Source of the DNA: Sphaeroforma arctica JP610
Taxonomy: Eukaryota
Direction of reading: 5' to 3'
NCBI RefSeq assembly: GCF_001186125.1
Contig: NW_014040433.1
Location: 18,521-82,520 of the forward strand
Length of the DNA stretch: 64,000 nucleotides
The notes beneath the pieces are model-generated. The model was not told the DNA's origin. It worked only from the letters and a program-made list of their open reading frames with translations, and made no database searches. The first letter of the stretch is position 1; each line of letters starts with the position of its first letter. The translations under genes and the position numbers were made by a program. This document shows positions 17,511 through 52,430 of the stretch, one piece after another.

Positions 17511-20500
17511 AAGTACTACCAGGTACAATCGTTACAAAGGAAACACAACGACTCTTTAGACGAGCGTGTAATAATACCTATATATTGCAATGGAAATAAA
17601 GTCCTTGCATTGATTGATCCTGGTTCAGAAATTTCATGTATATCCGACCGCTTTGCATTAATGAAAGACATAGAAAGGCGCACTCGAACTACTCACCTAA
17701 TCCTAGCAGATGACAAAACTTCTAAGTGTAATACCATGGCCACAGATGTTAAAATCTCTCTGGCCGATGATAGAAATATCACTACCCAAGCTGTGATAGT
17801 TAAGATGTCACAGAAGTACGACTTAATAGTCGGAATGAGTGACTTACTCGCTCCAGGTATAGCCGTATCTGGTTTACCAAATAACATAGATCCATTAAAG
17901 GATCAATCAGCCGATAACTGTCTGAAACCATATAAGCCCCCGTCAGACACAGTCAAGGTATTAATACCTGACTTTGCGGACAAAATCATGGATCTGATTC
18001 TAGTAAATAAGACGATAAAGATCACAGATTGGGCAAAATTTCGGTTTAACGACGGGTATGTCAGCCTTGACTTATCCAAGGTAGACTTTACTAAGATCAA
18101 ATGCCCTTCAAGAAACTATGTTTCTTGGAGACACGAAGCTGTAGTTAAAGAACAAGTTGAGAAATGGTTATCCGATAGGGTAATCGAAATCAATTACCAA
18201 CAAACGCCAGTTAACTTAGCATTATTGGCAGTTGATCAACACAACTCTGACGGAACATTTAAGAAAGTCAGAGTATGTCTAGATATGAGTCCAATGAATA
18301 AGTTATTGCCGACACATAGTTTCCATCTCCCTCGTATAAACGAGTTATTGAGACGAATGGAAGGTGCTACGGTGTTTACATCCATAGACCTAACACAGGG
18401 GTATCATCAAATGCAAGTTTATGAACCCCATCGTAAGTACTTTAGTTTACCTGGAAAGGTAAACAATACAGGTTCAGAGGTGCATCTTTCGGGTTGCACT
18501 CCTTACCAGCATTCTTCCAACAAGTAAGGGAGTAAATGTTTGCAGACATGCCTAACGTGCAAGTCTATATAGATGACATATTCATCTTTTCTAAGACTAA
18601 GGGCGAACATGCCGCATTAGTCAGGCGAGTCCTTCAGAGACTCAACGAACAAAACTTCAAGATTAACGAGAAGAAATGACACTTCGCCATGAGCGAAATA
18701 CAGCTCTTAGGCTACCGTATATCTGGGGAAGGTATTAAAATCGACCCCGGTAAAGTGGAACACCTGTTAGATTGGCGAACACCAACTACAGGAAGAGATG
18801 TGAACAGCATGTGTGGGTTTGTAAACTTCTTTTCAGATGGGGTACCACACTTGGCTGATTATCTTAAACCCTTTGGACACTTAAGATGTCATAAAGGCAA
18901 ACTAGGAGACTTGTAGACTAAAGAGTGTGATGACGCATTTAAAGCTCTCAAGCACGCAGTCCAACAAGCCCCTGTTGTACAAGGACCAGTCGATGGCGTG
19001 CCTTTTGAAATAGCAACGGACGCATCAGACTTAGCACTCGGAGGTGTACTATACCAGGTTATAGATTATAAACCTAGGTATATACAATTCTTTAGCCGAG
19101 AAATGAATGCATCACAGATGAATTATCCAACTGTGAAGCAAGAGCTACTAGCCATAGTAGCAGCTTTAACAAACTTCCGCGATTGCTTATACGAAACCGC
19201 TTTTACGCTGATGTGTGATCAGAAGTCCCTTCAATATATGAAGGAAATAAAGTCAGACTCTCGATTACTGAGCCGATGGCATGATACACTATCAAAGTGT
19301 CATTTTGATATCAAACATCTACCAGGGATACATAACCATTTACCGGATATGATATCACGCTTTGTACCGGACTTTAATAAATTCGTACGCGAGTTACAAG
19401 CCACTGATTGGAAATGTAACCCCAGGGGGTTTGAACTGGCTCAAAAAATATTTGGGCCACATACAGTTGCATGTTTGCTGCACATCATAATGCACAACTT
19501 AAGAATTACAGGACTTTAAATCATCCTTTAGGAGATGCCTTTCAGCTAGACCTCTCCGAACATAATGCGTGGGCTAATCCACCATGGCAGTTAATTGCCC
19601 AATTACTAAATTATGTTCATATACACAAAGCTATCATCACGTTGTGTTGCCCATTACGGAGTAAAGATTCATGGCTTAATACATTAATAGGTATGATACA
19701 ATGCGAGCCAATATATTTAGATAGGGAAGTAGATACTTTTCTATATCAGGGTACCCGAGCCGTCCAGAAGACGCCCTGGAGACATACTATAATATGTCGT
19801 ATAGGTCCCATTAGAACAACCAAATGGACCCCTTCTGAGACCTTCCTTAACAAGGTCAAAGAATCAGAGATTCTACTCTCTACTAACTTGAACGTTAAGC
19901 AGTTCAAAGGCAACACAGCACTTGAAGTCTGTGCACAAGAAATATAGTCTACTAATGACACTACAGTTAAGAAGCGTAAATCGGTGTTTAATAACATACA
20001 GTCCAAGGAAGTCTTTCAAACCGTATTTTTAAAGGGATTAATGAAAGATAATCCTGAAGCATATACACATATAATGCAACTATTAAATGAGTCAGGTGTA
20101 TCAAACGCACACGAGCGCATTTATGACACTCATGCGAAAGAAGGACAGGAGTCTGGAAACACTACAGACTTAGAGACCATGCAAGTCCCTACCTTTATTC
20201 TGGAGGAGCAGAATGATGAAAACATTCTTGCTTGGCTGACGCAAAACCATAAGCTGAAGCACAAGAACGTAGTAGACGCACTTAAAGATGCTAAGCGAAA
20301 TGGGATCGCGCACCCTAAGCTGGCAACTTTAGTTGACAGAGTATATCAGTCATGTACAGACTGTGATCTCAACCAGATTAAGCGCTATGGGTTCGTATCG
20401 CTTAAGAGTGTGACTGAAGATGTTCCATGGCGCAGGGTCATCATTGATCTGGTTGACCTGCCTACGTCCGAGCACACAGGCGACCGTTACGTATGCCACT

Positions 20501-21640
20501 TCATTGGTGTGGCGTCACGGTATAACTTGCTCTATCCGTTAAAGGACAAGAGTACGCAGACCATGGCAGAATTATGTTGCCAAGTCTTTGCTGACCACGG
20601 GTGGCCAGGTATTGTGTGTACTGATAACGGTAGCGAGTTCTGCGATGACGTAATGGAATCGGTAGTACTCGTAACAGGCATGTGCCATAAAACGGGTGTA
20701 CCATATAAACCGCAAACACAAGGCGCGAATGAAACGCGCCATAGAAGACTTAACTTCTTCTTACGTACTGCATTAACGGATGATGCAGATGATTGGCCGT
20801 ACCACCTTAAGTGGGTACAAACACAGATGAACGAGTGTGCTGATCCGGTTACAGGTACAACACCCGCTCACTATTTTCGTGGCAGATATAGTGAGTTACA
20901 AATACCTTTTAGCAAGGACGAACCTAATCACCAAGAGTTACCATGGTTAGAGAAGGTAGATCGTATTTATAACGTTGTATATCTTTGCTTGCGAGAAACA
21001 CGCAATATTGCCTTATTAAAAAGGCAAAATAGATAGAATGCTACCAAGAAGATAGCAGAGTATCAGGTTGGAGACAGAGTTAACATCCGTCAACGTATTT
21101 CCGATGCTACTGTATTAACATCTAAATGGTTAGGACCATATATAATCTCTGTAGCTGACGTTAAAAGTGGAACCTATGAGGTTAATAACTCCGACGGTTA
21201 CAGTGCTTTAAATATAGGCGTTAGTCGGATTCCGACTACCGAGTTTATTCTCGCAAGAAGACATGACTATAATGCCCCTCTTGATCGTTCTGAATTTAAA
21301 GACATTATATGGAGAACGGATCATGGAGGCTATACATACTATCGTACACGCTTTATAGCGCTGAGTTGACTTCAGATGCTTTCGATAATCAAGACTATTT
21401 AAAAGCCTTTAATCGAAAATGGCATAAACGCCTGCATAAGTCACAAGCTGAAAAAGATAGCACGTTTCCATCGTCTGAAGGCACGAAGTTAAAACTTACC
21501 CGCCTACAGCATTTATCCCGAGCTTTAATGCTCACCTTTCATATGTGCTTAAGACACTGAAGCGTAAGGAACGTCCAGTCGACCACCACGGACCTACTGA
21601 ACCTAAGCCCAAAACTCACAGGGTAACCGAGAACGCTTAA
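17511..21640 (+). pseudogene. pol: pol of element A (protease, RT, RNase H, adenine MTase-like domain, integrase, GPY/F, chromodomain-like) with several stops and frameshifts
   Basis: LIDPGS; IDLTQGYHQ; VYIDD; ATDASD; NPPW; HKLKH..CTDC; IIDL, TDNGSEF, QGANE; KWLGPY. Confidence 0.92.
19406..19810 (+). other. N6-adenine DNA methyltransferase-like domain (phage Dam/DIRS type) in pol of A
   Basis: TDWKCNP..FGPHTV[D]MFAAHHNAQL (1-nt frameshift near 19469)..DAF..NAWANPPW (19576-19587)..CCP..W. Confidence 0.85.
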
Positions 21641-21779
21641 CTTTTCCGCCTGAGAAACATTAACTATACGTTATGCTACTTAATGTTTTCGACCCGTTTT
21701 TCCTTTCTCGCTTTTTGACCCATAATCAGCTTGAGTGAGCAACTTGCTTCTCCTGGGTCTCAAAGCTGGGTGGGGGCTG

Positions 21780-22540
21780 TGTAAGCCGGGCCTCCACATT
21801 AGACTATGTTATAAACGTACTCTTAAGCAGTACGTAAACTATAAACGTACTCTTAATAGTACAAGGAACTTGAGTTTCCTGAATGGGTTTTAACGGTTTT
21901 ATTAATTAATACATTTTCCATTTTGCATATCAGATATTTGGACAAGGCCATTAAAAGGCCCCAGTAAAATACAAACATATGATTTGGTCTAGTTCTATTA
22001 TTAGAACTATATTTACTTTCCAAATATATTTATATCTGAATACTTCGGTAGCGAGATGGCTCAACCGAATATAGGTTTCTAGGGACTATTAGCGTTACCT
22101 AGTTTAACCTCAGTTCAGCCAACCAGATATGCCAGTCTGATGAAGGCTAAATCGGTAATTCTTGATAAGTGGCAAGTTATTGGTTAATGCACTAACTATG
22201 GACATCAAGAGTTTTTTCTTTTTTTTCTATTCTTTTTTTCTAAAGATAGGATTTTATGAGTCTCTCGGATTCGCCCCAACGAAACATACCATAGTTTCTA
22301 ATAGAGCGACACCGAAACATTAAATAAAATCCCTTGGCGAAACCAGTACTGAGAGGATTATAAATAGGCAATGTCTCAGCCTCACAATCCCTCAGAGTAT
22401 TACTGATTTGACGAGGCATACCTAACTTTACTAAAAGACTCATTTCGATTATTTACTTCGAATTTCACGATACTTAGACTTAACCTACACGTTTAATTAC
22501 TCTAAGGCGTTAATATCGCCTTGATAGACCGAATCTCACA
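21780..22540 (+). repeat. 3' LTR of element A
   Basis: Follows the PPT; TGTAAG...CTCACA; matches the 5' LTR. Confidence 0.93.
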
Positions 22541-26141: not shown

Positions 26142-29100
26142 CAAACATACCGGGTCTTGTCACTAAGACAAAAGGACGCACCTCAAGACGATCGTGTAAT
26201 TCTTGACATACGAGTTAACGGACATGAAATAAAAGCGATGTTAGATCCGGGCTCGCAAATTTCATGTATGTCTTTTAGATTCTGTAAAATGACAGACGTA
26301 ACTCGTAAGTCAGAGCCAACTATGTTGCAACTGGCTGATGAAAGAGAGATCACTTGCAGAGAAATGGCAATCGGTCTTAGGTTTACATTGACAGACCAAC
26401 GTACTATAGTTACTAAGGCAGTCATATGTAACACTTTACCAGACTATGATCTCATAGTAGGTATGAGTGATTTATTGTCATTAGGTATCCCAATTACAGG
26501 CTTACCTACTAACATTGAACCACAGAAGGATCAGTCGGCCGACAACTTGTTGAAACCGGTATATAAACCTTCGAAGACTGTGAAGGAGATGACCCCTCAC
26601 TTCACAGAGAAACTCAAGAACTTGATTTTCGAAAACGACAAGATTCAGATCACTGACTGGACTAAGTTCAAATTCAATAACGGATACGTTAGTCTAAACC
26701 TGACGAGAGTAGATTTCTCGAAGTTGAAGTGTCCTACACGTAACTATGTTGCATGGCGTCATGAGCAGGTCATACGAGAACAGGTTAAAGCATGGTTAGA
26801 TGACGGAGTGATCGCAGTCAACTACGAGCCGACTCCCGTCAACCTAGCGCTTTTAGCCGTCGACCAATTCAACTCTGACGGGATGCTGAAGAAAGTTCGG
26901 GTGTGTTTGGTAATGAGCCCGATTAACGCTTTGATACCGACACACAATTTTCATTTACCAAGGATAAACGAACAACTCAGGCGCATGGAGGGAGCTAAGA
27001 TATTCTCCACTATCGACCTGAAGGAGGGCTACCACCAGATGAAGATCTACAAACCATACCGGAAGTATTTCACCTTTACCTGGGAGGGTCAGCAATATTC
27101 GTTCAAAGGTACCCCCTGTGGGTTACACATGTTATCTGCGTTCTTTCAGCAAATTATGCAAGAGTTGTTTAGGGATATGGACAATGTACAAGTATACATT
27201 GATGACATTGTGGTATTCACCAAAACCAAAGAGGAGCGCGAAAGGGTTGTGAGAGAGGTTCTAGACAAACTCAACAAGCACAACTTCAAGGTCAACAGTA
27301 AGAAATGTCACTTCGGTGTTAACGAGATTCAGCTGTTGGGTTACCGAGTATCCGGGGATGGAATCATGATCGATCCCGGGAAGGTCGACCACTTGCTAGG
27401 CTGGAGAACTCCTACCACGGGTAAGGATGTCAACAGCATGTGCGGATTCGTCAACTTTTTGTCTGACGGAGTACCACACCTGGCAAGTTATTAAAAGCCC
27501 TTTGGACATCTGAGATGTCATAAAGGCAAACTAGGCGCACTGTGGACCAAAGACTGTGATGACGCATTCAAGCAGCTCAAAACAGTGGTACAGCAAGCAC
27601 CAGTAGGCGGCGTCTTGTATCAAATGATTGATGGGAAACCAAGATATGTACAGTTCTTTAGCAGGGCTATGAATTCGTCTTAGACCAATTACCAACCGTG
27701 CTACAAGAGCTTTTGGCTATTGTTACTGCACTCACTCATTTTAAGGACTATCTATATGGCACGCACTTTAACGTGCTATGAGATCAGATGTCATTGCAAC
27801 ACCTAAAGGACATGAAACCTAACTCACAGTTAGTCAGTCGGTGGCATGACACGATCGCGAAATTTTCTTTCGGCATAACACACATACCGGGTATTCACAA
27901 TCACCTACCCGACATGTTGTCTCGCTTCGTACCAGACTTTTAACAAGATGGTTAGGGAGTTACTAGCTACAGATTGGATGGCCAATCCTAGGTGGTTTAA
28001 GATCGCTGACAATATATATGGACCACATACCATAGATATGTTTGCCGCTCATCATAATGCGCAACTGCCGAGGTACCAGACACTGGAACATCCGGAAGGA
28101 GACGGATTCCAGATAGACTTGTCTCACGAGAATGCCTGTTCAAATCCTCCATGGCTATTAATACTACAGTTGGTAAATTATGTAAATATTCAAGATGCTA
28201 CCATCACGTTATGTTGTCCCCTAAGACACTCAGATAAATGACTACCACAGTTGATCTCAATGATACAATGTGAGCCGATCTATGTGTATAGAGAGGTAGA
28301 TACTTTTCTCTACCAGGGTACCCGTGCAGTCCAAAAGACGCCTTGGCGACATACTATAATATGTCGAATAGGTCCAGTTGGAACAACCAAGTGGACACCA
28401 TCCGAGACTTTCAAACAGAAGGTTGAGAAATCCAAGATTCCACTCTTGAATCCGAAGTCTCAATCAGAGACTGGGACAACACTAGCACTTGCAGTATGTG
28501 TTACCGAGATACAGCCAAATTCAAAGGAATCAAAGAGGAGCGCAACACTAGCGAAAGCCTTCTACAAAAAGATATGGTCTGCCAGGGAAACTGCACACCG
28601 AGCAGAAACTCGATTGCTTAAGCAATTGATGAATGACTTTTCTGAGGTATATGATCATGTGACTCAACTAATGGACAGATCAAACATTAGTCGGATTCAC
28701 GATGTAGAAGCTTTAGGCGAGATTGGACAAGACGAGTCTTCGAGTCCAGGTGATGACGCGGTGGAATCCTCACCTCCTGATTTCAATGTAACAAGTAGAT
28801 CACAGGAGGCGATTCTGAAGTGGTTAAGACAAAATCATGCTCTTAAGCACATGGATAAGGTTAGAACTGAGAAAGATTGCAAGAGGTACGGAATCGTACA
28901 CCCGAACCTCAAGCAATATATATCTCAGGTGTATCACGAATGTAACAACTGCGAAGTTAACCGGATCAAGCGCTACGGGTACGCACCTTTACGCAGCGTA
29001 TCAGAAGACGAGCCGTGGCGCCGGGATATCATTGATTTGGTTGAGCTACCCACGTCCGAATACACGAAGGATAAATATGTCTGTCACGTGTTTGATGTCG

Positions 29101-30228
29101 CATCAAGATATAATATATTATATCCGCTGAAAGATAAATCGACACAAACTGTGGCTGAGTGCATATATAAGTGCTTCGCAGATTTCGGCTGGCCAGCTAT
29201 TGTATGTTCCGACAACGGTTGTGAGTTTACAGGAGATGTCATGACGACACTGTTACTCGTTGCGGGATCAAGCCATAAGATGGGTGTACCTTACAAGCCT
29301 CAGACACAAGGTGCGAACGAGGTACGACACAGAAAAATGAAGGAGTTCATGTGAGGAGCACTACTTGATGATGCTGACATGTGGTCATACTCAATCATTT
29401 GGGTACAGACACAGATGAACGAATCTCTTGATTCAGTCACTGATACAACACCAGCTCACTATTTCCGGGGCCGTTATAGTGAATTACAGATCCCCTTATA
29501 ACAAGGAGTCTCAAGATGATCATGTGTTACCATGCTTAGAAAAGATGCGTCGGACCAGAGATGTGGTTTATCCTTGCTTAAGGGAGATGAAGGACATCGC
29601 TCTCAATATGAGACAAAAGCGGCGGAATGATACCAAGAAAATAGACGAGTTTGAGGTAGGCGATATAGTCAACATTATGGCTCGCAACTTCGATACAACT
29701 GTGCTTACGGCTAAATATATTGGACCATTTATGATCTCTGTGGCCGATAAGAAGAGCGGAACGTATGAATTTAACAACGTTGACGGCTCTATAAATACCG
29801 GGTCACATCGAATCCCTACGACACAGATAATCCTTCGTCGCACACGTGAAGCTACTACACCTCTTATGTCTTACGAGTTTAAGAAGATTTTAAGGAAGTA
29901 CAAACATGAGGATATGACATATTACACTGCGGAGTTCGACGATGGAGCACAGTTTGATCTTCCACCATCAGCATTTGATGATCCGGATGTACTAAAGGCT
30001 TTTAATAAGAAGTTTCGCAAACGCTTACACAAAAATAAGGCTGATGTAGAAACAATCTTACCATCGAATAAGCGACCCGAAGTGGTTAAGATCTATCCAC
30101 AGACATCATACATTCCCAGCTTTAAACAGCATAGAATGTACGTACCTCCAATAGGCATTAAGAAACGTCCCATCCACCATCGGGGACCACAAGGACCAAA
30201 GCCCAAACGTAATAGAGTAGCCGAGTAA
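26142..30228 (+). pseudogene. pol: pol of element B (PR, RT, RNase H with the TDAS segment deleted near 27603, MTase-like domain, integrase, GPF, chromodomain-like)
   Basis: MLDPGS; IDLKEGYHQ; VYIDD; NPPW; HALKH..CNNC; IIDL, SDNGCEF, QGANE; KYIGPF; YEFKKILRK. Confidence 0.92.
27972..28380 (+). other. N6-adenine DNA methyltransferase-like domain in pol of B
   Basis: TDWMANPRWF..YGPHTIDMFAAHHNAQL..DGF..NACSNPPW (28143-28154)..CCPLRHSDK* (W codon changed to stop). Confidence 0.87.
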
Positions 30229-30412
30229 CTTATAACGTCTATGTATACTTTGTCTAAGAGAATATAACATAAGCATTGAGGCTGTTATATGATCGAAACC
30301 CGTTTCTTTTCTTTCCGCTTTTACAATTCATGTGAGCTTTTTGAGTCTATGTGCTAATACCACGTATAAGCCAATATTGTAATTTTCAAGCTGAGGGGGG
30401 GGGGGGGGGCTA

Positions 30413-31315
30413 AGTAAAAATAGCTGGTTCCTAATAGTAGTTGCACAGTTAACGTATTTTATAAATGTAATAACGTATTACCGTTTATACTTATGATACA
30501 GGAATATGTTTAACGAATTGGATATTAACAAGAACTGAGAAATTCAATATTCTGTATATGTGACAGTACTCAGTAGAGTATGGGACTCTACTGTGGACAA
30601 TTAGGTGGCTTTCCGAATATAGATTGGTTTTTCCACTGAAATTAGAATTGTACATAATATAGGAACGAGACTAATCTGACACCTGAAAATGACACTCTGG
30701 GAATCTCTAATTAATGGGAGTACCATGAGAGAGGATCTCAGGCATGAAATGGTTGTTGGTACAAACCTATGGTGTAATTCGATACTGATCTCAGAGCAAG
30801 ATAATCCACTGAGAAAAGGACAGGATCAAAGTTGTTAGAATTTAGGACAACATGGTTTTGATTCCTCCTAGCCAGCCAACTAGATATGCCCGTCTATGCA
30901 TTAAATGGGATGGGGAGCTAGGTACCAAGTGATGGGGTTTAGGTGCAGATGTATACTGCACCAGCTTGGTGTTTTGATTTGATTTTTGATTTTCTTAAGT
31001 TGGACTTAGAGGTATTTCATTGGTTAGTTTGATTGAGTGATTGTTTCGATGCGTGAAATGTAAACTATGCGTCCAATGTAGTGATATCTAGTCTTGTTAA
31101 CTAAAACATAAATAAATCTAGACCGAAGTAGTGAGTGATTAGAGCGGAATATATAGACAATAGTCCCAGTATAAAACCCCCTAATCTTTTGCTCATTACC
31201 AAAGGCTGAAGCTAAACTTATTTAACATTTTGCATTTTATCGTAATAACGGATTGTCTTGTTAACGTAAACGTCTTGGTATCGTATAGTCAGCCTAGAGG
31301 AGACCGACTTTTACA
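30413..31315 (+). repeat. 3' LTR of element B (~900 bp)
   Basis: Follows the PPT with the same spacing as in A (AGTAAAAA in place of TGTAAAAA); ends GACCGACTTTTACA followed by the TSD. Confidence 0.8.
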
Positions 31316-31475
31316 CTGGGCAGAAAATCATCATATCGCTGGTTCTTATATCGGACACATTCATGTATTGCACACTTCCGCACACTGCACGTGATCTGTC
31401 GATAGGAACCCTGCTCGCATTCGATGCCATCACTATCACTTCTCACCACGAACGTATATTTGCAGATCCACATAG
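31316..31475 (-). pseudogene. N-terminal Zn-binding DNA-binding segment of the MULE transposase relic
   Basis: WICKYTFVVR...CAIHEC resembles the MULE C...HxC domain; the frame continues through the CTGG target site into RSAVIRRRWRQPEF at 23281. Confidence 0.55.
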
Positions 31476-31545
31476 CTAAAAATTACGCTTGCTATGAATC
31501 ATGGATTTATTTATTTTTGTTATTAAGGACAATTGTTCAGCTGCC

Positions 31546-31988: not shown

Positions 31989-32117
31989 TACAATAAGTAG
32001 TGAAGAGAGACAGGAATACACGAATGTGTGGAGGAGACGACAAGCAGGACCTCCAGCGAGGCTACGAATAGTGAGTGTACCAGACACACCGAGGTTTTGG
32101 GGACATGGCCATGACGA

Positions 32118-37000: not shown

Positions 37001-39351
37001 ACATCGAGTGAACCCGATTTGAAGTGCGTAGGAAAACTTGCCTACTAAATAAGTTTTTATTGTGTACCTGCATGTGTATTGTATACATACTTGCTCTATA
37101 GACATACTGGCGGAGAACGTATTGAATAACTCGATAGAAGTAAATAAACGACGAGGACAAGGTGCAATGGTGTAGCATCTAGGGACCAGATTATCAACAA
37201 GCCAATACAAATCCCAAAACCTCATAATAATCAAATATTGAGTTTTGAAATTAGGATTCAAATATTTCTGATATTAGAGTCATCTGAAAAATAAACAGTA
37301 GAACCGGCAAGCTATACAGGGACTCCGCGTGTGAGAGAAACACTCAAGTATAAAACCTGAGTCTAGTGAAATAGAAAACACAAATAAAGACTCGGTTCGA
37401 TTATCTCAGACTGGGACTTTTCCTAGCTGAGATAACCGTGCTTGAGAAGCGGTCTATTGTACCCTTTGGCTCGTACTTTTCAGCTACTCTCCATACGCTA
37501 CATTTTTTTTAACAATATCCTTACTTAGATAAGTCAGATAGAAACAAACCTCACTTAAGGTGAGAAACTAGTAGTGTTTTGAGCAGAAAGAGGTCAGTTA
37601 AAAACCTCACACAAATTACTGTATTCAGCGTTAAGCAAGTATAATCCATAAAGAAGCAGTGACGGAGCTCCAGACCGTAACAAGGCGAAACCGGGAGACT
37701 ACCAGTGAGTCTGAGAAACAAGTGGGTCGGAGGAAATTAGAAGCTGGACCCCAGAAACAGGCAAGAAGCGGTCCCATGAAATCTCTGGTATCCGAGAAGG
37801 AGTAGGGTAAGGTTTGGGGGAGTTTCAGTGCCGTCTAGTGACAAATAGAAGAGAAACCACCCAAAAGTGTCAAGGTGATGAGTTCTTCAATGTTGAGATA
37901 TTCTGTGTGAAAATTGTGGAGTGCCACTGTGATTTTCAAATAAGAAAATTTTAGTAGGTTAGAACACCCCACTAAGGAAATGAAGAAAGACTAGTAAACG
38001 TACCCGACAGTCCAGATAGGGATAGAACAGGCAGGCACACCCAACCAACAGTGGTGGGAGGAATAAGGTGAGGTTCAGTGAGTAGAATCGCACTTATAGA
38101 CAAAAGCATAGAAAGAAGACAGTCAACATTTCGATAAGAAACGCACGTAGGCATCCAATTCGCAATAATACAGGTGAGGATTCTAATTTGGTCTGCTTAT
38201 GTAGATTGGCAAGTGTACTACTGCAAGTAAAGAGAAACTAGAACACAGAATACACAAGGTTTTCTTAGCCTATCCTCTAGAAACACAGAGAGGGCATCAA
38301 ATTCATGAGCAATCGATGAGACCACCAAATTTAGCTCAAAAAAGGGAATGCTGACTATCACACCTAATACTACAAGTACAGAGCAATCAAGGAAGAGTGA
38401 ATACCAAGACTCTCTTTATACCAAGAACATCAGTATCCTAGTTTGGGACCAGAAGTTTACAAATATACGTGGGTCAGCGGATGAAATTACCTCAAATGAC
38501 GTGTAACAGAACATCTCTGGACAATCATACCACAGGTGGCTACCAACGTATAACAGAACATATATCACGACTACAAAGAGAAGTATAACAAACGCTTGAA
38601 CATACAAAGGTTGTAAGGCGTAAAATTCAAGTGATAAGTCAAGGTCGAATCCTCAACATCTCATAGTAGCATAACATTGACAAATAATAGAAAGTAGTAC
38701 ACATGCTTCATGGAAGACAATAGCACGAGATTTATAACACATGACTAATGAATGATACACGTCAAGTGATACAACATTTAGCATGATAAAATCAAAAGCA
38801 CCAGTGTGGCTTGCAACCAGAAGACACATAAGCATTGAGACATCACATCCAAGTGACATTAAAAACACAAGACACAAAATAGCAAATCACAAACAAACAG
38901 TTTGAAATAACATAATCACAATCTGACAATGCAACCACAGTACAGTTGATCAAGAACAACAAAAAACCTGATCGAGCACGCTAAGAGCTCAATAGATAAA
39001 AAAATTACTAGAGCATCAAGATTACTAGTTGGGGCTCATAGCAACAGCAAGAAAGTAACCGACGAAAATCCAAGATACATAATAAGTGTAACATGCGGAT
39101 AACAAACACACCGAGTAATATCTAGCTAAGGGTGCACCACTACAAAAAGATACTGAAACAACATATGCGCAGGCGCATTCGCACACAATTCAGGTAATAA
39201 CACTTTAAATGGAAGAGGTATTGATCACAAGACTACTCTACAGTGTGCAACACAATGACACAAAAAGACAAACATAGGTTAGACGAACCCACAATTCAAT
39301 GGGGTCGGCAAACACACCAAACATAGATGCGAATCAAAAGTCACACATGTT

Positions 39352-40003
39352 AGAAAAGTGGGCTACCTAAGTGATATTCAGTTAGTAAACAGTTCGTGAG
39401 ACTCGGAAGTGAATTCAGTTCACTAACCACAATAAAAGCGACTAAAAGGACCACAAAGTAGACACACAGGTGCTAATCATCTGAAGTAATATCTCAAGTG
39501 TATACAGCACATCCACATACCACAGGAACACGATCAAACGATTCACATACAAGTCAAATAGATCGTCGTCAATACAAGTAAGTTCGGTATGAAACAGAGT
39601 ATCAAGGGTGATGCCAATAAGACCGAACAGAAAAGTGGGCTACCTAAGTGATATTCAGTTAGTAAACAGTTCGTGAGACTCGGAAGTGAATTCAGTTCAC
39701 TAACCACAATAAAAGCGACTAAGAGGACCACAAAGTAGACACACAGGTGCTAATCATCTGAAGTAATATCTCAAGTGTAAACAGCACATCCACATATCAC
39801 AGGAACACGATCAAACGATTCACATACCCACAAAGTAGACACACAGGTGCTAATCATCTGAAGTAATATCTCAAGTGTAAACAGCACATCAACATACCAC
39901 AGGAACACGATCAAACGATTCACATACAAGTCAAATAGATCGTCGTCAATACAAGTAAGTTCGGTATGAAACAGAGTATCAAGGGTGATGCCAATAAGAC
40001 CGA
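39352..40003. repeat. Direct duplications (~277-bp unit plus a partial internal re-duplication) upstream of element C
   Basis: Copies start at 39352 and 39629; the cacaaagtagacacacagg block occurs three times. Confidence 0.9.
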
Positions 40004-40266
40004 ACTTCAAAGGTGACGTCATTAGGACCAAACATCTAATTAAAATCGTGTGAGAAATATTTTCGCACATGACGAAATAAGTTCAAATAAGTCCACACGT
40101 GACGGAATAAGCCGAACCTACAAACACCGTTTACACCTCCCCAATCACAGGAAGGAACGCAACAAGATACCGCACAACACAGAACGGTGAGCACTTCCAA
40201 CGGAAGTGCAGCAAAGCGAGACCACAATAAAAGTAAGTGAGATAAATTCAAATTTTATACATTTTT

Positions 40267-43200
40267 TTGTACAAATTACTAGCAAAGACAAAGCGGGTGA
40301 AGCGCGCATTCGCACAGAATATAGCACGAGTCGCTACTAATAACCTGAAATACCCACACATCAACACATATATCTCAAGATGCCAACGGCAACCAGAGCA
40401 GGCGTGTATGGTCGTGAAGAGGGTGGCGCTGGCGCGGACGATGCGGGTGACAGCCCAGCAGGGGGGACAAACCCAGGCAGTAGCTCAAGCCAACCAACAC
40501 CGGGGGAGGGGCACCCATACAAGCTTCAGCAATGCGTTTACAAATAGACAAAAGCATCTGTCAAGGCAACTATGTCCTGGTGAGTAGGTTTGTAGCCAAA
40601 TTGGAACAAACAGCACCGATATCTATCGAGTCTACACAAGGTGAGAGTAGGCATAGACGATCAACAGCCAGAACGACGCATGCCAATCGTCGATGCATAA
40701 CTCACAGAAGAAGATACGATTTAGCTATCAATGAGTGTGGTGATGACGAGGAGGACGAACTAATACAAATCAGTCAGTGCATCAGTGAGTTATAACTCAT
40801 GCGTTCACGCTTAGGCGATAGGATCAATGAACCTACACTTTAACTACTAAAAACCTCAGGATTTTCCGAAGTTACCCCGAGACAGTTATTTCAAAACGAA
40901 AAAATGTGGAGATATTATAGAGTTTACTACGCGATGCAGAGATCTATTCTTAGCCAAGTCTGTGTCATCATGTTCGTACCCAGCGCGCGAGATATCTATT
41001 AGACTCCATTGATACAACGGAGACGACCAAGGGGGTGCCCAATGAGTTACGATACTCTGAAACACAGATGACCAAGCACTACAAGGACCCTGAACAATTG
41101 AATAGAATCATTATTGTCAGCCTCAGACACCATCCAGTAGAGAATCTGTTAGAGAAGTTTCTCAATGACATGCAGAATAAGACATTGAACGTGGAGGTGC
41201 ACACAGAGCGATTGCATCGAACAATGCAAGTGTTAGAAGAGTGTTACCGCAACTCGGACAAAGAGACTATACACACGCAAAATCCTCAAGATCAGGCACT
41301 TACGTACTACGGACAACAGAAGAAAGTGGACGTCATCATCAAAGCAGACAAACTGCCTGATGAAAGTGAAGGTCACTTATCCGATATGAAACACACCACG
41401 TTTTACTCTCCTACTGAAGCAATCATAAGAGTAGCGGCTAAAGTACAGGCAGAGCGTTTGTACAGAGAGCGTAAGAAACGCAACTCGCAGCCAGTCACAC
41501 GCAGCCAGTCTCAGAACGGCACAACCACTGCGACCAAACCTGAAACGTCACAAACCAGAGAAAGGCGCACCGAAACAAACCAAGCCAATAGGACAAACTC
41601 AAGAGAAGTGAGAGGCGCGCGAAGAGCGTGCATGTCCTTATTGTAAGGTGATGCCAGTCCCACATCGTTCCAGTCTATGTCTCATGAAGGCATCGAATCA
41701 GACCAAACAGGCTGGGGAGCGTGTCAAGAACGATGTGCAACTAGCAAGACTGTCCATCACCTCCGGAAAGGTAGAAGACATCACAGATGGCGATGAGTCC
41801 TGCAACAACTGGTGGGAGGAAGCAAACATGATTGACCTGGCTGACAGGCTTAATGTACATACAGATGAAGAAATGTTGTTAATACATGCATATGATATAA
41901 ATTACCAACCTTTATCCTTACTTCCCGCACCACGAGACCAACGCTTGCACTTTGACACGTACAAAATGGCAACACATACAATGCACTAGTAGACTCTGGC
42001 GCGCAGAGCTGATGTATGGACAAGAGTATATTAACTGAAGTGTATCTCTCTGTCAGAGCGCAACCGGGCTACATATAACTACCACAAACAGATGCAAGAA
42101 TACAAAGAACAAGGTCAATCCAAGTGTGTAGAAGTATTGAATCTATCAGACCAGAAGGCACCAATACTTCTAGGTATGGACATTTTACCCTACATAGGCG
42201 TATCCATAGCGGGATTAATAAATCCACTTATACCAACAGATGCAAAACGAAAATTACTACTCACTCCACATGAGGAAGACCCAAAGCATGAACAAAAAGG
42301 CTTCAGATAATCACTGTCAGATATCCTAGACACTAATGTGAACATACCTCCTGATGTACATTGCAACCTACCAGGCTCTACAGTCACAGTACCTGCAAAT
42401 GAAATCAATGTCAGACAAATGAGGCATGCCAAAGTCAACTTTGTACCCCATAAGTATATTCCGCAAACGGATGAAAACATGAAAAGGTGGCTTACAGATG
42501 GTCACATATACAAACGAACTACACCAACAACAGTGAATCTACCATTGTTATCAACAGGTGAACATGACCAAACAGGTGTCCTTAAGAAAGTAAGAACATG
42601 TTTAAACTCACTTGAGATCAATTACCAACATGGACAAGATAAATTCGTGCTACCAAAAATAAAAGAAGTACTACACAACCTACAAGGAGTACAATTCTTC
42701 TCAAAGTTAGTTCTCACGGGAGGGTTCCATCACTTCCTAGTAGATGAAGCAAGCCAACACTTCTTCATGTTCTCGTGGAGAGGAGCGCAATACGCATTCA
42801 TGTCAGCGCTGTTTGGCCTACACTCACTCACAGCACAATTCCAAAGAGTCATGGCAAACTTGCTCACAAACATCAAATGTGTGCAAGTGTATGTAGATGA
42901 CATAGTAATTGTAAGTCTTACAGAAGATGAACACCGCAAGACAGTTCTCGAAGTAATCAAACGGTTGAATGGAGCAAACTTCCGACTCAACCACTACAAA
43001 TATGCCTTCGCGGTCAAAGTGGTCAATATTCTAGGTGTGAAAGTCACCACAAATGACCTATAGCTGATCCTGAAAAAAAGAAACGAATGATGGACTGGCC
43101 ACTATCCAGAACGAAAAGAGATCTGCACAAAGCGGTGGGACTAGCAAATTATATGCGCGACCATATTTCCAACTTTGCCCACACAACTTAACACTTCAGG

Positions 43201-44720
43201 AACCTAATGAAAGGGAAAATAAACCAGAATATATTCATGCTATGGACACCGGAACTCAAAAAGAAGTGGGAAGAACTCAAAGAAGCCATCGCGTGTTCGG
43301 CGACACTAGCATACCCTGTTGATGGGGTACCGTTTCAAACCATGAACGATGCTAGTGACTATGGAATAGGAGGATGTTTATTTCAAGTCATCGATAGAGT
43401 CAGGAGAGATATTTTCTACTTTTCCAAAGGCTTGAATCCACCACAACAACGCTTCGGCACAAACACTAAAGAGCTACTAGCACTGGCATACAGCCTAGAA
43501 CATTTCTCCGAATATATCAAAGGAGGGGACATAACACTGTGGACAGATCATAAAGCGCTCACGCAAATGAACAGCCAACAGACGTTACACCCAATGCTAA
43601 CTAAATGGATAGCTAAAACATTACACCACCACTTCTCCATCAAACATGTCCCAGGCAAGGACGACCAGATGGCAGACATGATGTCGTGTCTATACGAAGA
43701 CATATTTACTACTAAAAAGTCAGAGGTACTGCATAACGCGAACAAAACAACACACAACAGCCGAGAGTGCACCACCTTGGAAACTAACATGCCCATAACC
43801 ATTATAGCTATAGACTGGATGTTACACCCCAGATTCTACAAATAAACTGAAAGACGATTTGAGAAATTCACAGTAGATCTGTTTGCATCAGTACTATACC
43901 AAAAACCAGAATGCGCTCCTGCAGAAGTGGGCGCAGGTATTGAATGCATGGGCAAACCCACCGTGGAAACTCATACTTGAGATCCTTGACAAAGTCATTA
44001 AAGAGGCAACCAGCATCACGAGATGTGTACCATAATATCCCAATGCAACGTGGTTTCCAAAATTATTGTCTTTACTAGAAGAAGACTCGATGCTAGTGGA
44101 AAACACAAACAATAAGTTCCTCAACGAATGTGGCAAGACCCCATGTGGCGTCTCATCAGTAGCAAAGATAGGAGTGAAGTCTCCATAATTTGCCTCAACG
44201 CGGGAACAACCTGCCATACACGCTTCAGCATCACAACCAGTTTACTCTGGAGAGGCACCGCATGAAACAGAATACGAGACACGTGTTCACGCCATCGAGC
44301 AATACCACAACTTGGGACATTATAACCCTGAGGAAACGGTAAAAAAGTTGCAAGCAGATGGACACGATTGGCCACAAATTCAACAACATGTACACAAGTA
44401 CAATGAAGATTGCGTACCATGTCTCAAAAATAAGATACACGAAAAGGAATTCCATCCCTTACAATCAATCACAGCCGCATTTACAGGGGACAGAGTCCAA
44501 GTGAACACCATTGGGCCACTACTGAACTCAAACAGAGGACACACAATGTGTTAGTATGGCTAGATGTGCATCCATCATATGTCATACTCAGACCAATGAT
44601 GAACAAATCAGCGGCGACTATAGCACGGACGCTGGTACATATCATATGTAAACATGGGTTTCCGCAAATCATACAGACCGACCAAGGCACTGAATATGTT
44701 AATGACAAGTTTAACCTTCT
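40267..44720 (+). mobile_element. Degenerate, 3'-truncated Ty3/gypsy element C (distinct family): gag-PR-RT-RH-MTase-IN. An A-rich leader may extend upstream to ~37 kb
   Basis: ALVDSGA (~41983), VYVDD, NDASDYGIGG, TDHKAL, VDLFAS, NPPW, HNLGH..CVPC, TDQGTEY; stops abruptly within the integrase. Confidence 0.88.
43813..44170 (+). other. N6-adenine DNA methyltransferase-like domain in pol of C
   Basis: DWMLHPRFYK*TERRFEKFTVDLFAS..(frameshift)..NAWANPPW (43955-43966) KLILEILDKV..CVP*YPNATWFP. Confidence 0.85.
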
Positions 44721-48029: not shown

Positions 48030-51000
48030 GTTATGGGCCTATATCGAATATATTTATTTTTATATACCTTATATACATCGCTTAGATTTCCACCCGAACT
48101 TCTCCCTTCTGATCTCCCACCCTTGATCCTTTGATTGACACTCTGATCTTCTGATCGACATTCTGATCTCTGATTCCCTCTCGCCAGTCCCCTGATTCAC
48201 TATCGCCATGCGACTCCCTCCACCCACGGGCCAAATCCCCGTCACTACACTCTCCTCCTTCGATGGAGCCCAACGCTTCCAACTCGATTTCTTCCCAACA
48301 CTTCAGCCAGACAACAATATCTCCCACGCCAACAACCACATTCAACTTGTCCGCACCATTATCTCTGCCGTTCTTGACACAAACGACAACCCTCACGTCA
48401 ACAACACCGCCATCTACTTAGGTGCACAACTTGATGCAATCACTGCTATCACCGACCTCAACAACTATCACAAAGCCGCCACCGATGCACAAGCTGTCCT
48501 TACCCGTATTCGACATGACCGCGCCACGTTATCCGCCGAGCTTGATACCATCCGCGTCGAATCCGCTACACAAGCTGCATCCATTGCTACTCTTAATGCT
48601 GACCTTGCTCGCATACGTCACGAACGACGCACAATTCTCACTGAACGTAACACTGCCAATACCGCTCGCGATTTAGCCCTCTATAGAACAGACTTCACTC
48701 GCCACTGATCTCGATTGCATCCGCAACAAACGAGGCACACTCATCACTGAACGTGACCAGTTTACATCTGATTTTCATCGCATTCGCACTAAACGTGAAC
48801 AGGTGCAATCCGACTGTTATGCCATAGCTGCACTGAACGTGAACAGGCGCAATTCGACTGTCATGCCATAGCTCTCGAACGTGATACCCTTCATCGCGAT
48901 CTCACACGTACACAAGACATCAACGCCAACGCAACCACAGAACACACCGCTCTACAAAATGATCTCCCACGCTTCCGCCATGAGCGTGACTTATACCTCG
49001 AGGAGCGCGAAGAGGCCCGTTTCGAACAAATCCAAGCCCAAGAACAGTCTACTGCCTCCCCTGATGCTTACATCCAAACCGCTCACACTGCCCTCCGCAA
49101 AGCCCATGCCCTCGCTGAAGCCGACAATCAACGCTTGCGCACCGATCGCGACGCACCCCGTGCAAGCCTCACCCAACAGCAGCACGAACATTCCCAACTC
49201 TTACAGGAAGCACTCGCAGAGAACGAAGACCTCACCACTGCCGCCACTCAGCTCCACGACGAAACAACTCCAGGTTGCTCAGAGCAAGATTCGCAAGCTC
49301 GAACAACGCATCCCATCCGCCGCACCTCGGTCTCACCCAGCTTCCCCACTCCTAATACCGAACATCCCTAACAGTCGTGCCACCACTGGCAAAGCTCTTA
49401 AATATTCGAGCAACAACCCGGCTACGAAGCTTACCGAGGACTACAATTTCCCCAATTGGCATCGTCAACTCATACACATCCTTAAGTATGGCGTTCTCCA
49501 CACTCTTCAACCTGCCTCCACTGCCGACTACTCCGAGAAAACCGTCGGCACCACCTTCTTATTCAAGTCACTCGGCAGCGGCCTCCCAGAACAGTATGGC
49601 ACCTACCTCGACCAAGACCCTCATGTATTCTATCGCCGCCTTTGCAACGACGTCAACTCCATCACTATCGGTCGTATATGGGAGCTTCTTGTCCAACTTG
49701 TAACCCTCCCCAAGCAACCATTCCTCGACGACAGCATCGCCAAAGTCCACCTACTTCGCGACCAACTCAAAGGCCTCCATGCCGACACTCCTGAGTTCTA
49801 TCACATCTGCAGTCTACTTCAACCCCTCCATGACGGCTTTGACATCGTTGCCCAAGACGTCATGGGTGCTACCGACCACACATACACCCCGCTATCGTCA
49901 CTAAGATGAGCAATTATGCTACCAACAGCAAAACCATTCTCAGCATCAGCAGCAACTATGCCGTCGCCAGTGTCTCATACCACACTCCTTCCACGCCCCC
50001 AATCCCCGACCCCGCCGCGTTTCACTTGGTAAAGACCCTTCAGGCAACTGCTTTGCACGGCAGAAGCCCGGTCACGGCGCATATCCGCTGCTGGGACTCG
50101 TCTCACACTGGCTCACAATGCACTCTCCCTGGCCTCCCCAAGTGTACCAACTGCCGCAACTTCACCGGTCACACCACCATTGCATATCGCCGTACCTGAA
50201 GCCACGGGGTTCCTCACGTAGCCACATGCCCACCTCCAGTTCCTCCCCCTCCCGATCCACCCCTTGAACCGGTGTAGTACCATGTGAACACGCTTATCAT
50301 CCGTGCAGAACCCAATCACTAATCTGTCATTGCTACAGCTCTCATCGACTCTGGCGCCGACATCTTTATTGTCACTTTCGCTGGCTCACTCTCTGATATC
50401 GAACACGGCCGCTTCGACATTGAGCTTGCCGGCGGCTCTCTCAACACCGCCTCCACTCGCGGTACTCTCCCCGGCCTCAGACCTGCCCTCATCCTCCCTG
50501 GCGCCAGTCACCCTATCCTACACGTCCGCCTCCAGTTCCTCCCTCTCCTGATCTACCCCTTGGACCGGTGCATTACCATGTGAACATGCTTATCCTCCGT
50601 GCAGAACTCAATCACCAATCCGTCATCGCTACAGCTCTCATCGACTCTGGCGCCGACATCTATATTGTCACTTTCGCCGACTCACTCTCTGATATCACGG
50701 CCGCTACGACATTGAGCTCGCCGGCGGCTCTCTCGTCACCGCCTCCACTCGTGGTACTCTCCCCGCCCTCGGTCCTGCCGTTATCCTACCTGACACCATT
50801 CAGCCTATCCTCTCCGTACGTAACATGCAGCGCAACGGTTACACCATCTTCTTTTCCGAAACCCTTACCCCCGATGGCCTTGCCCAATGCCTCATCACAC
50901 GCAATGGCTCCATCGTTACCATCATCGACGAATCTGTCGGGCGCTACCATCTGAATACCTCCCAAGCGAACAGCCTCAACCTCCATCATGCCCGCTTTGG

Positions 51001-52430
51001 CCATCAATCCATCCGTACGACTAAAGGCATTGCCCACACCCACAATATCCCCATCCCTCCTCCTCTTACTGCGACGACTATCAACTCCACCCCACACTTT
51101 TCGATACTCACGTCCCCTAGGTCTTTGGTCCCGTTGACATCGACATGTTCGCTACTCAACACAACCACCAAGTCCCCATCTACTACACCCTTGACCACAC
51201 CGATAAGACGACTCCTCTTCACGACGCGTACAAGCAGAACTGACGCCAGCCTACCAAGCGCCTCTACGGCAACCTCCCCTGGAAAGACTTCCCACGGGCC
51301 GCATGATCTGGCTGTTTCCTGTCAAACCTAAAGCTGCTTGGTGGCCCACTCTCATGTCTCATCTTCAGTCGCACGTCGAATTTATCCCCTCTTTTCCGCA
51401 CACGTTTCTCCGCCGCCAACTAGACGGCACCCAAGACTTTGTCATCACTCCCAACTGGCTCTCTACGGGTGTCGCTATCTTCGGTCCTCAGGCTCATGCC
51501 GTCCCCATCCCTGCAGCTCTCCAGACCGCCATCGACGTCAGTCTCTTCCACACCGCCCCCCCCCCGCATGCTCTTGCATCGCATGTGTCCTTAGAAAAAT
51601 ACACAAGTTTTCCGTCAGCAATAAGTCCCGCACCTTCCCTGACATCGGCGCCGAATGGCAGGTCGATCTTGAAGACAAAGTTGAGCAGGGCTACGGTGGT
51701 CATGCATACACTATCCGCTTCTTTGAACGCTGCACCGGCCTTGAATATCAGGAACACCTGCGCGACAAAAGCGACGCTCACCTCGTCCTAGACCATTTCT
51801 ACACATACATTAAAGTACAGGGTCGCGATCGTCTTTGCACCATCATTGCCAACCGTGGTGGTAATTTTTTTTGCCACCGAATTCAAACGCGTCAATCACC
51901 TCGCCCATGTGCAGATACTCTTCAACCCTACGAGTGACTCCGCCAAACACGGTGGTGTCAAACGCGTGTACCAGACCAACATGAACATTACACTCTGTAT
52001 GGTCGTCCAGGCTCTCCAACCCTCCCACATATAGGCTGAGGCCAAATCCCATGCCTCCCACATCTGCAACATCTCCCCCCGTGCCTCCAACCCCAAGCGT
52101 CTCAGCCCTTACGCAGTCTTCTTTGGTCGCCCCGTTACTGCCATCGTCAAAGCACTTTGCGTATAAGGTTGTATGACCCTTAGCCATGACCACGGCAACA
52201 CAGACAAGCTCCGTCCCAAATGCCGTGTTGACATCCTCATCACACATAACCCCTTCTCTACGCATGCCGACGAATATCGCATGCTTAACGTCGACGCTGG
52301 ATACACCAGACCTGTCGACACGTCCAATTCAACGAGGTCATCTTCCCCTTATGGCACAACGTCGACTCCAAGTCCAAGCCTTACTTTACACCGGAACAGC
52401 CCTCCGTCATTGACACATATCCGACGTGGT
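48030..52430 (+). mobile_element. Degenerate, 3'-truncated Ty1/copia-like element D: PBS-gag-PR(x2)-[ZnF split by MTase]-IN; RT/RH absent
   Basis: AACA|GTTATGGGCC PBS; gag KLTEDYNFPNW and knuckle remnants; ALIDSGA protease followed directly by HHARFGH...CIAC and the integrase core (WQVDL, ANRGGNF, HGGVKR, SPY..FFG). Confidence 0.8.
51073..51490 (+). other. N6-adenine DNA methyltransferase-like domain in copia-like element D
   Basis: Manual translation DDYQLHPTLFDTHVP*VFGPVDIDMFATQHNHQV..DAY..LYGNLPW (51271-51282), then IWLFPVKPKAAWWP..TFL..TPNW..IFGP. Confidence 0.8.

What the first reader, a model, noticed from the sequence alone, without database searches (positions are those of the whole stretch)
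19406..51590. Every LTR retrotransposon in the window, from both gypsy and copia lineages, encodes a Dam-like N6-adenine methyltransferase
Seen: four distinct elements (A 19406-19810, B 27972-28380, C 43813-44170, D 51073-51490) contain the same ~130-aa module, D[WY]xxxP..F..[FY]GP..D[ML]FA..N..D[AG][FY]..N[PL]PW..P....W, embedded in pol. Known: DxFA (SAM-binding motif I) followed by NPP[WF] (motif IV) is the signature of the phage-type Dam family (Pfam PF05869-like) that DIRS1 tyrosine-recombinase retrotransposons carry after RNase H. It is not part of the standard gypsy or copia architecture, and these elements use DDE integrases with direct LTRs. Inference: this genome favours retroelements that methylate adenines in their own cDNA or target. 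Possible purposes are mimicking host 6mA marks of active chromatin or evading a host defence. Whether this has already been described must be checked.
Basis: partly seen in the sequence, partly recalled or inferred. Interest (0 to 1): 0.93.

Follow-up and report, generated by a model that had tools for sequence, protein, structure and literature searches.

The report
Adenine methylase inside a copia integrase
Four broken jumping genes here carry the same adenine-methyltransferase-like domain; three are gypsy elements of a kind described in a 2026 preprint, while the fourth is likely a copia element that holds the domain inside its integrase zinc finger, where it would travel with the integrase and likely mark the new DNA copy.

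Summary
A Dam-like (PF05869) domain lies in all four pol-bearing LTR-type elements; every copy is broken by stops or frameshifts. A, B and C are Ty3/gypsy elements with the domain between RNase H and integrase. That design, including a Sphaeroforma arctica lineage, is in a May 2026 preprint, and this scan met it before on other DNA. The new part is D. Its integrase scores 29.3 bits against a copia profile and 3.0 against a gypsy one, and the domain sits between the His-His and Cys-Cys halves of the integrase zinc finger (about 190 residues instead of 24-28). Two S. arctica gene models show the same layout, one across its whole length. Two unrelated copia proteins carry the domain at other positions, one with a full copia reverse transcriptase. 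My literature searches found no copia case. The domain is under purifying selection (A versus B) and is predicted to fold like N6-adenine methyltransferases, nearest the RNA enzymes PCIF1 and DIMT1. Activity is unproven: the preprint's E. coli assay was negative. D's own reverse transcriptase was never seen. Verdict: new variant of a known kind.

The parts
14511..15276 (+). Element A 5' LTR (TG...CA)
   Evidence: 97.3% identical over 767 nt to 21779-22540; 745 of 761 aligned bases identical
17511..19297 (+). Element A protease, reverse transcriptase and RNase H (Ty3/gypsy order, frameshifted)
   Evidence: Pfam gag-asp_proteas E 4e-5, RVT_1, RT_RNaseH_2 E 6.5e-28; tblastn with P0001
19397..19815 (+). 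Element A Dam-like domain, one frameshift near 19470, motif IV NPPW
20239..21197 (+). Element A integrase (zinc finger, core, tail)
   Evidence: Pfam rve E 4e-8 at 20440-20712; translation
21779..22540 (+). Element A 3' LTR, preceded by a purine-rich tract
26142..27935 (+). Element B protease, reverse transcriptase and RNase H (Ty3/gypsy)
   Evidence: Pfam RVT_1 E 1.2e-27 at 26943-27350
27963..28382 (+). Element B Dam-like domain, DMFA and NPPW present, one stop at 28239
   Evidence: PF05869 E 4.5e-4; 68% identical to P0001
28827..30222 (+). Element B integrase
   Evidence: Pfam rve E 6.9e-12 at 29025-29300
41980..43617 (+). Element C protease, reverse transcriptase and RNase H (Ty3/gypsy, another family)
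   Evidence: Pfam RVT_1 E 2.9e-14, RT_RNaseH_2 E 6e-22
43804..44176 (+). Element C Dam-like domain, DLFA and NPPW present, two stops, a frameshift and a short gap against homologues
   Evidence: PF05869 E 1.7e-3; groups with P0003 and S. arctica SARC_09892 at 100/100
44282..44718 (+). Element C integrase zinc finger (H2C2) and truncated core
   Evidence: Integrase_H2C2 E 3e-8, rve E 1e-8
48196..50200 (+). Element D gag-like region with a zinc-knuckle-like stretch (broken)
   Evidence: translation; only a weak Ty5 Gag hit, E 0.26-0.32
50224..50935 (+). Element D protease (DSGA), its first part tandemly duplicated (296 nt)
   Evidence: 53-58% identical to SARC_01068
50936..51061 (+). Element D integrase zinc finger, His-His half (LHHARFGH at 50981-51004)
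   Evidence: Pfam gag_pre-integrs positions 19-44 of 67, E 0.027
51067..51554 (+). Element D Dam-like domain inserted in the zinc finger; DMFA and NLPW; stops at 51118 and 51241, deletion with frameshift near 51296; short helical linker after 51491
   Evidence: same layout in SARC_01068 and SARC_09551
51560..52360 (+). Element D integrase from the Cys-x-x-Cys half (51575) through the core to the SH3-like tail; second Asp and Glu of the DDE triad are absent in this copy
   Evidence: 29.3 bits to a copia profile, 3.0 to a gypsy profile, collinear alignment to P0144; Atlas neighbours
52460..52568 (+). Fragment of another multi-copy element (resembles a gypsy integrase tail, by recall) at which D is cut off; no reverse transcriptase follows
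   Evidence: separate contigs with loose ends on both sides; other D-family contigs leave the window sequence at 52421

Best explanation
All four elements carry a Dam-like domain in pol, and in D, which is likely a copia element, it lies between the His-His and Cys-Cys halves of the integrase zinc finger, so it would stay attached to integrase and likely methylates adenines in the element's own new DNA copy. Shown: the domain, its position, its presence in other copies and families, purifying selection between A and B, a predicted SAM-dependent methyltransferase fold. Inferred: the polyprotein is packaged in the particle; in gypsy A-C the domain may be released or stay on RT or integrase, but in D-type elements a protease cut on both sides would split the zinc finger, so it should ride with the integrase on the cDNA; the domain has no separate target-recognition part, so closeness rather than a sequence motif would pick the substrate; 6mA laid on the cDNA or RNA:DNA intermediate would be kept up by the host enzyme AMT1 and keep the new insertion transcribed (the preprint's model). 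The window copies are dead relics. The host is likely Sphaeroforma arctica or a close relative (inferred from named homologues).
For: Domain real and confined to the four elements. pN/pS 0.24 for the domain against 0.16 RT, 0.26 integrase core, 0.77 linker, one pairwise comparison. AlphaFold model of SARC_09551 residues 148-371: core pLDDT mostly above 90; best solved matches are N6-adenine methyltransferases: PCIF1 E 3.9e-4, Z 9.4 rmsd 3.2 over 139 residues, DIMT1 9.2, ErmE 8.5, M.TaqI 7.8, T4 Dam 7.8. D integrase with the domain left out aligns across the zinc finger to an ordinary copia integrase: 29.3 bits, best of 200 shuffles 6.6; gypsy profiles 3.0 and 2.4. His-to-Cys spacing 24 and 28 in P0144 and P0074, 194 in SARC_09551, 190 codons in D. 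Other genomic copies of D's family differ from D by indels at its three frame breaks that keep one frame and by sense codons at its two stops. NLPW shows no variant in the contigs that cover it; NLPY is the SAM-contacting motif of the active enzyme DIMT1 (PMC8463865, passages). Preprint: DAM-LTR insertions in S. arctica and Abeoforma have more 6mA and more transcripts than other LTR elements.
Against: The preprint expressed DIRS, DAM-LTR and adintovirus domains in dam-minus E. coli and saw no rise in 6mA. Iyer et al. 2016 place the DIRS1 domain in the PCIF1 clade and call it likely inactive (PMC4738411, passages). The top structural matches are RNA enzymes, with DNA enzymes 1.6 Z lower. All three split-finger families depart from NPP[WFY] (NLPW, NQP then end, NPIW), which 118 of 150 homologues keep. 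No D-type element with reverse transcriptase or LTRs was seen; at least two other D-family contigs are also broken. SARC_01068 and SARC_09551 are gene models whose DNA I could not read, so predicted introns are not excluded. The preprint's 6mA data were not split by copia or gypsy in the text I read. Pfam hits to D's copia domains are all below cut-off.
Confidence: 0.45

Rival explanations
1. The domain is a catalytically weak or dead binding module. Fused to integrase it would tether the integration complex to 6mA-marked or RNA-polymerase-II-associated chromatin, or bind the element's nucleic acid, and the extra 6mA on these elements would reflect where they insert and host AMT1 activity.
For: Negative E. 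coli assay; 'likely inactive' reading of DIRS1 domains in PMC4738411; altered motif IV in all three split-finger families; position inside integrase, the protein that chooses the site; earlier scan notes report gypsy families with a conserved domain but lost motif (not checked here).
Against: DxF[AS] kept in 133 of 150 and NPP[WFY] in 118 of 150 homologues; A, B, C and P0001 keep NPPW; Asn and the aromatic residue are kept in D and SARC_09551.
Confidence: 0.25
2. The domain methylates RNA, like PCIF1: the cap-adjacent adenosine or internal adenosines of the element's own transcript inside the particle, which would alter its stability, translation or detection.
For: PCIF1 is the top match by Foldseek and VIA-align, followed by DIMT1, Erm and KsgA; Pfam PCIF1_WW also hits several DIRS-like homologues; no DNA methylation in E. 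coli.
Against: Sequence profiles point to phage DNA methyltransferases (PF05869, phrog_111, TIGR01712 weakly; phage 'Dam' genes); Z differences under 1 are ties and a shared fold shows no substrate; placement inside integrase fits a DNA-stage role better; DNA 6mA is raised on DAM-LTRs.
Confidence: 0.2
3. D's layout is an accident: a piece of a gypsy or DIRS element nested in a dead copia integrase, or D is not copia at all.
For: D is badly decayed, has no reverse transcriptase or LTRs in the window and ends in a foreign fragment; the donor of its domain is unresolved (mean identity 28.5% to gypsy, 26.5% to DIRS-like rows).
Against: Three families only 28-64% identical in the domain share the layout and group together at 93/92; no RNase H or other donor sequence flanks the domain; frame is continuous in SARC_01068 and SARC_09551; protease is followed directly by integrase; copia profile 29.3 bits against gypsy 3.0.
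Confidence: 0.06
4. The domain is a neutral passenger inherited from DIRS pol and tolerated at domain borders.
For: No activity has been shown.
Against: pN/pS 0.24 against 0.77 in the neighbouring linker; retention at several different positions in gypsy and copia polyproteins.
Confidence: 0.04

Closest known systems
DAM-LTR retrotransposons, ichthyosporean lineage (Fernandez-Moreno et al., bioRxiv 10.64898/2026.05.21.726589; whole main text read, supplements closed)
   Same: Dam-like PF05869 domain in the pol of DDE-integrase LTR elements; Ty3/gypsy organisation without chromodomain; S. arctica and Abeoforma named. A, B and C fit; two top homologues are Abeoforma whisleri proteins.
   Different: The text treats only Ty3/gypsy-like LTR elements, classifies by RVT_1 and holds the word 'copia' 0 times. 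D, SARC_01068, SARC_09551, P0144 and P0074 are copia-type; in the first three the domain interrupts the integrase zinc finger.
DIRS tyrosine-recombinase retrotransposons with MT domain (PMC3783388, passages read)
   Same: Same Pfam domain after RNase H, as in A-C.
   Different: DIRS lack aspartic protease and DDE integrase and have inverted repeats; the window elements have protease and rve integrase, and A has direct LTRs.
PCIF1/CAPAM clade of N6-adenine methyltransferases (PMC4738411, passages read)
   Same: Best structural match of the modelled domain; the review places DIRS1 domains in this clade.
   Different: PCIF1 is a cellular WW-domain RNA cap enzyme of about 480-490 modelled residues; the element's domain is a bare 140-residue core at 12% identity.
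Retrotransposon-borne cytosine methyltransferases (de Mendoza et al. 2018, PMC5890265, passages read)
   Same: A DNA-methyltransferase-type domain captured into a retrotransposon polyprotein.
   Different: C5-cytosine enzymes in LINE, DIRS and gypsy elements; that paper notes that Symbiodinium copia lack such a domain.

Membership tests
Dam-like N6-adenine methyltransferase (PF05869 / DIRS MT) | Profile match to PF05869 | tested here: met
   Window copies below cut-off (E 4.5e-4 to 0.044); close intact relatives above or near it: SARC_09892 E 6.6e-12, P0003 E 2.4e-14, SARC_09551 E 1.2e-5
Dam-like N6-adenine methyltransferase (PF05869 / DIRS MT) | DxFA motif followed by NPP[WFY] | tested here: inconclusive
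   Met in B, C and P0001, and in A apart from the frameshift at the DxFA; D has NLPW, SARC_09551 NPIW
Dam-like N6-adenine methyltransferase (PF05869 / DIRS MT) | Class I SAM-dependent methyltransferase fold | tested here: met
   Predicted model of SARC_09551, Z 9.4 rmsd 3.2 over 139 residues to PCIF1, Foldseek E 3.9e-4
Dam-like N6-adenine methyltransferase (PF05869 / DIRS MT) | Methylates adenine in DNA | not testable with these tools
   Preprint's heterologous assay was negative
Ty3/gypsy DAM-LTR (A, B, C) | Order protease, RVT_1, RNase H, Dam, integrase | tested here: met
Ty3/gypsy DAM-LTR (A, B, C) | Direct LTRs | tested here: inconclusive
   Found for A only; none for B or C in the window
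Ty3/gypsy DAM-LTR (A, B, C) | Falls in the preprint's ichthyosporean Dam clade | tested here: inconclusive
Ty1/copia (D) | Integrase follows protease directly, before reverse transcriptase | tested here: met
   Window order and SARC_01068 / SARC_09551
Ty1/copia (D) | Copia-type integrase (GAG-pre-integrase finger, core, SH3) | tested here: met
   29.3 bits to a two-sequence copia profile against 3.0 gypsy; Atlas neighbours carry gag_pre-integrs and rve in 13-38% of members; Pfam itself only E 0.027-0.1
Ty1/copia (D) | RVT_2-type reverse transcriptase and RNase H after integrase | tested here: inconclusive
   D is cut off at about 52421-52460; no D-family protein reaching RT was found. Met for the unrelated P0144 (RVT_2 E 8e-60)
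Ty1/copia (D) | Direct LTRs | tested here: inconclusive
   None found around the truncated copy
DIRS | No aspartic protease or DDE integrase; tyrosine recombinase instead | tested here: not met
   Protease and rve integrase present in all four

The most novel reading that the evidence does not exclude
Ty1/copia retrotransposons have captured the Dam-like domain several times on their own (inside the integrase zinc finger in Sphaeroforma, between integrase and reverse transcriptase in P0144, ahead of the protease in P0074), and the Sphaeroforma version is an active integrase-methyltransferase fusion whose split zinc finger still closes around the enzyme, so that the integration complex writes 6mA on its own cDNA or landing site.
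Probability: 0.3. Interest if true: 0.8.

Novelty: new variant of a known kind. Interest (0 to 1): 0.58.

Why it matters
It extends adenine-methyltransferase capture from DIRS and gypsy to the copia superfamily, whose replication machinery is only distantly related, which strengthens the case that the domain is useful to retroelements in hosts that mark active genes with 6mA. The zinc-finger insertion also narrows the open question of what the domain acts on: it ties the enzyme to integrase and so to the cDNA and target-site stage. Natural unbroken versions exist (SARC_09551, P0001, P0144), and 6mA long-read data for S. arctica are reported in the preprint, so the idea can be tested directly. 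Screens keyed on RVT_1 would miss or leave unclassified such copia cases.

Tried and rejected
No whole genome was held, so no genome-wide census or many-copy dN/dS. Word-based homologue search with D's integrase found nothing; two metagenome contig scans found no locus. Sequence searches of solved structures gave nothing useful. In the second model the His-His helix and Cys-Cys tail were low-confidence and no integrase N-terminal domain appeared among the fold matches. A complex prediction of the two zinc-finger halves of SARC_09551 with zinc gave no answer (score 0.04). No RNA holder was listed for D. An AU test did not reject a single clade of all five copia rows (log-likelihood 40.6 lower, p 0.129), so separate captures rest on the three positions and on P0144's domain grouping with gypsy rows (100/97), not on a formal test. 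A clade of Sphaeroforma-type gypsy plus split-finger copia was neither shown nor rejected (p 0.389). I considered that the near-open frame across D's domain (50693-51937, one stop) is a second overlapping gene; rejected because the stretch is 37% C, the reading is Ser/Thr/Pro-rich, and homologues run through the Dam frame. GATC and ApT counts in the elements showed no consistent pattern. The first integrase dN/dS rows were out of frame and were redone.


Full report
Observation. Six-frame translation shows the module at all four places named. A search with the A piece returned one intact polyprotein, P0001 (1376 aa, 71% identical), with RVT_1, RNase H, PF05869 and integrase. Its domain finds all four window copies at E 4e-66 to 6e-7, against at most 24.6 bits in 50 shuffled windows; a profile of 150 homologues finds the same four and nothing else. 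All copies are broken. Only A has an LTR pair, 745 of 761 bases identical. A minus-strand LINE-like element has no such domain. No whole genome was available.

Elements A, B, C. Pfam gives protease, RVT_1, RNase H, Dam and integrase in gypsy order. Between A and B the domain has pN/pS 0.24 over 113 codons, against 0.16 for RT, 0.26 for integrase core and 0.77 for the linker after it (one pair, synonymous sites near saturation). In a tree of 65 domains (61 of the 150 hits, chosen for domain context and coverage, plus the four window copies; labels from Pfam architecture), A, B and P0001 form one group (100/100) and C another with P0003 and SARC_09892 of Sphaeroforma arctica (100/100). This architecture is published: bioRxiv 10.64898/2026.05.21.726589 (whole main text read; supplements closed) defines DAM-LTRs, names an ichthyosporean lineage in Pirum, Abeoforma and S. 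arctica with 'conventional Ty3/Gypsy-like organization', reports more 6mA and expression on these insertions, and found no 6mA when the domains were expressed in dam-minus E. coli. Earlier notes of this scan reached the same preprint for gypsy cases in other genomes. The host here is likely S. arctica or a close relative, inferred only from named homologues.

Element D. The order is gag-like region, protease (partly duplicated), LHHARFGH, Dam-like domain, Cys-x-x-Cys, integrase core, SH3-like tail; it then breaks off into a 110-nt piece of another repeat, with no reverse transcriptase. Pfam hits are weak (gag_pre-integrs positions 19-44 of 67, E 0.027; rve E 0.1). Atlas neighbours of the integrase piece and of the related SARC_01068 are unnamed or copia-type clusters with gag_pre-integrs or rve in a minority of members. 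With the Dam stretch left out, D's integrase scores 29.3 bits against a profile of two copia integrases (best of 200 shuffles 6.6) and 3.0 and 2.4 against gypsy profiles, and aligns straight across an ordinary copia zinc finger. The second His and first Cys are 24 and 28 residues apart in the ordinary fingers of P0144 and P0074 and 190 codons apart in D.

The layout is not an accident of this copy. Public-run contigs show six distinct sequences over 51217-51273 in run X14, one identical to D. Other copies run collinearly from the His-His half into the domain and from the domain into the integrase core; they differ from D by indels at its three frame breaks that keep a single frame, and read sense codons at its two stops (one search showed 40 of 365 differences). 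At least two of those contigs are broken elsewhere, and none spans the whole stretch. Two S. arctica gene models carry the same layout: SARC_01068 (protease, His-His, first half of the domain, then ends) and SARC_09551 (protease end, HRSEGH at 155, DLFA 211, NPIW 250, CRVC 355; spacing 194). Their domains are 64% and 31% identical to D's and the three group at 93/92, just under the starred level. I could not read the DNA under these models.

Other copia cases. An HMMER search of 1.84 billion cluster representatives gave 5,235 hits at E 0.001, of which the best 150 were listed and all scanned with Pfam (at a stricter threshold, and long lists show only five families a protein). 4 of 150 are copia-type: the two SARC proteins, P0144 (1248 aa, unnamed ENA contig: Pol_BBD, gag_pre-integrs, rve, SH3, Dam E 1.4e-12, RVT_2 E 8e-60) and P0074 (525 aa, unnamed JGI contig: Dam, Pol_BBD, gag_pre-integrs, rve). 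That is three positions. P0144's domain groups with gypsy and chromovirus rows (100/97), away from D, but a tree holding all five copia rows together was not rejected (p 0.129). The donor of D's domain is unresolved.

Fold and motifs. A model of SARC_09551 residues 148-371 from a 38-row alignment has a confident core that matches class I methyltransferases, first PCIF1 (Foldseek E 3.9e-4; Z 9.4, rmsd 3.2, 139 residues), then DIMT1, Erm and KsgA, with M.TaqI and T4 Dam at Z 7.8. Iyer et al. 2016 put DIRS1 domains in the PCIF1 clade and thought them likely inactive (passages). NPP[WFY] is kept in 118 of 150 hits and DxF[AS] in 133 of 150. The split-finger families have NLPW (no variant in covering contigs), NQP and NPIW; NLPY is the SAM-contacting motif of active DIMT1 (passages), so the change need not be inactivating.

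Mechanism. I favour, at 0.45, an enzyme that marks the element's own cDNA or RNA:DNA intermediate with 6mA, later kept by host AMT1. The new argument is positional: a domain inside the zinc finger cannot be cut out without splitting the finger (inference from the known role of the HHCC finger, recalled), so it should accompany integrase. Rivals are a non-catalytic tether (0.25), an RNA methyltransferase (0.2), a nested-fragment artefact (0.06) and a neutral passenger (0.04). Whether the split finger still binds zinc is untested.

Novelty. Gypsy plus Dam is known. For copia plus Dam, or an insertion in the integrase zinc finger, searches found no description; listings only were seen for most hits, with passages read in PMC5890265, PMC11673190, PMC3783388, PMC4738411 and PMC8463865. 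The library lacks most subscription papers, Repbase and GyDB, and the preprint's supplements were closed. The scan's own notes held no finding with all of copia, Dam and methyltransferase and no look-alike of SARC_01068, though they report copia elements with cytosine-methyltransferase-like domains between protease and integrase (unchecked). Verdict: new variant of a known kind, interest 0.58.

Noticed in passing
window 6750-11610 (-): LINE-like element with ORF1, a decayed endonuclease-like stretch and RVT_1 (E 8e-15); no Dam-like domain.
   Followed up: partly
window 30395-34014 (+): After B's poly-G tract lie two tandem duplications (31546-31988, 32118-32549) and a 345-aa ORF (32977-34014) without Pfam hit that looks gag-like by eye; no pol next to it.
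   Followed up: partly
window 36000-40900: Strongly A-skewed, decayed region with internal repeats (39352-40005); no recognisable domain in six frames.
   Followed up: partly
window 4310-6102 (+), 61621-62631 (-), about 56100-57000 (+): Likely host genes: alpha/beta hydrolase, HXXEE protein, and exons of a trypsin-like protease recognised by eye.
   Followed up: no
window 15969-16911; 60543-61397: A 943-N assembly gap inside A's gag region; a 41-bp minisatellite.
   Followed up: no
proteins P0018, P0028 (and fragment P0115): Gypsy-type polyproteins over 2100 aa that carry an exonuclease/endonuclease/phosphatase domain followed by the Dam-like domain ahead of reverse transcriptase; hosts unnamed.
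   Followed up: no
proteins P0119, P0022, P0052: A group of Dam-like domains (92/90) in other contexts: one after a dUTPase (P0119), two apparently ahead of a protease-like stretch seen by eye.
   Followed up: no
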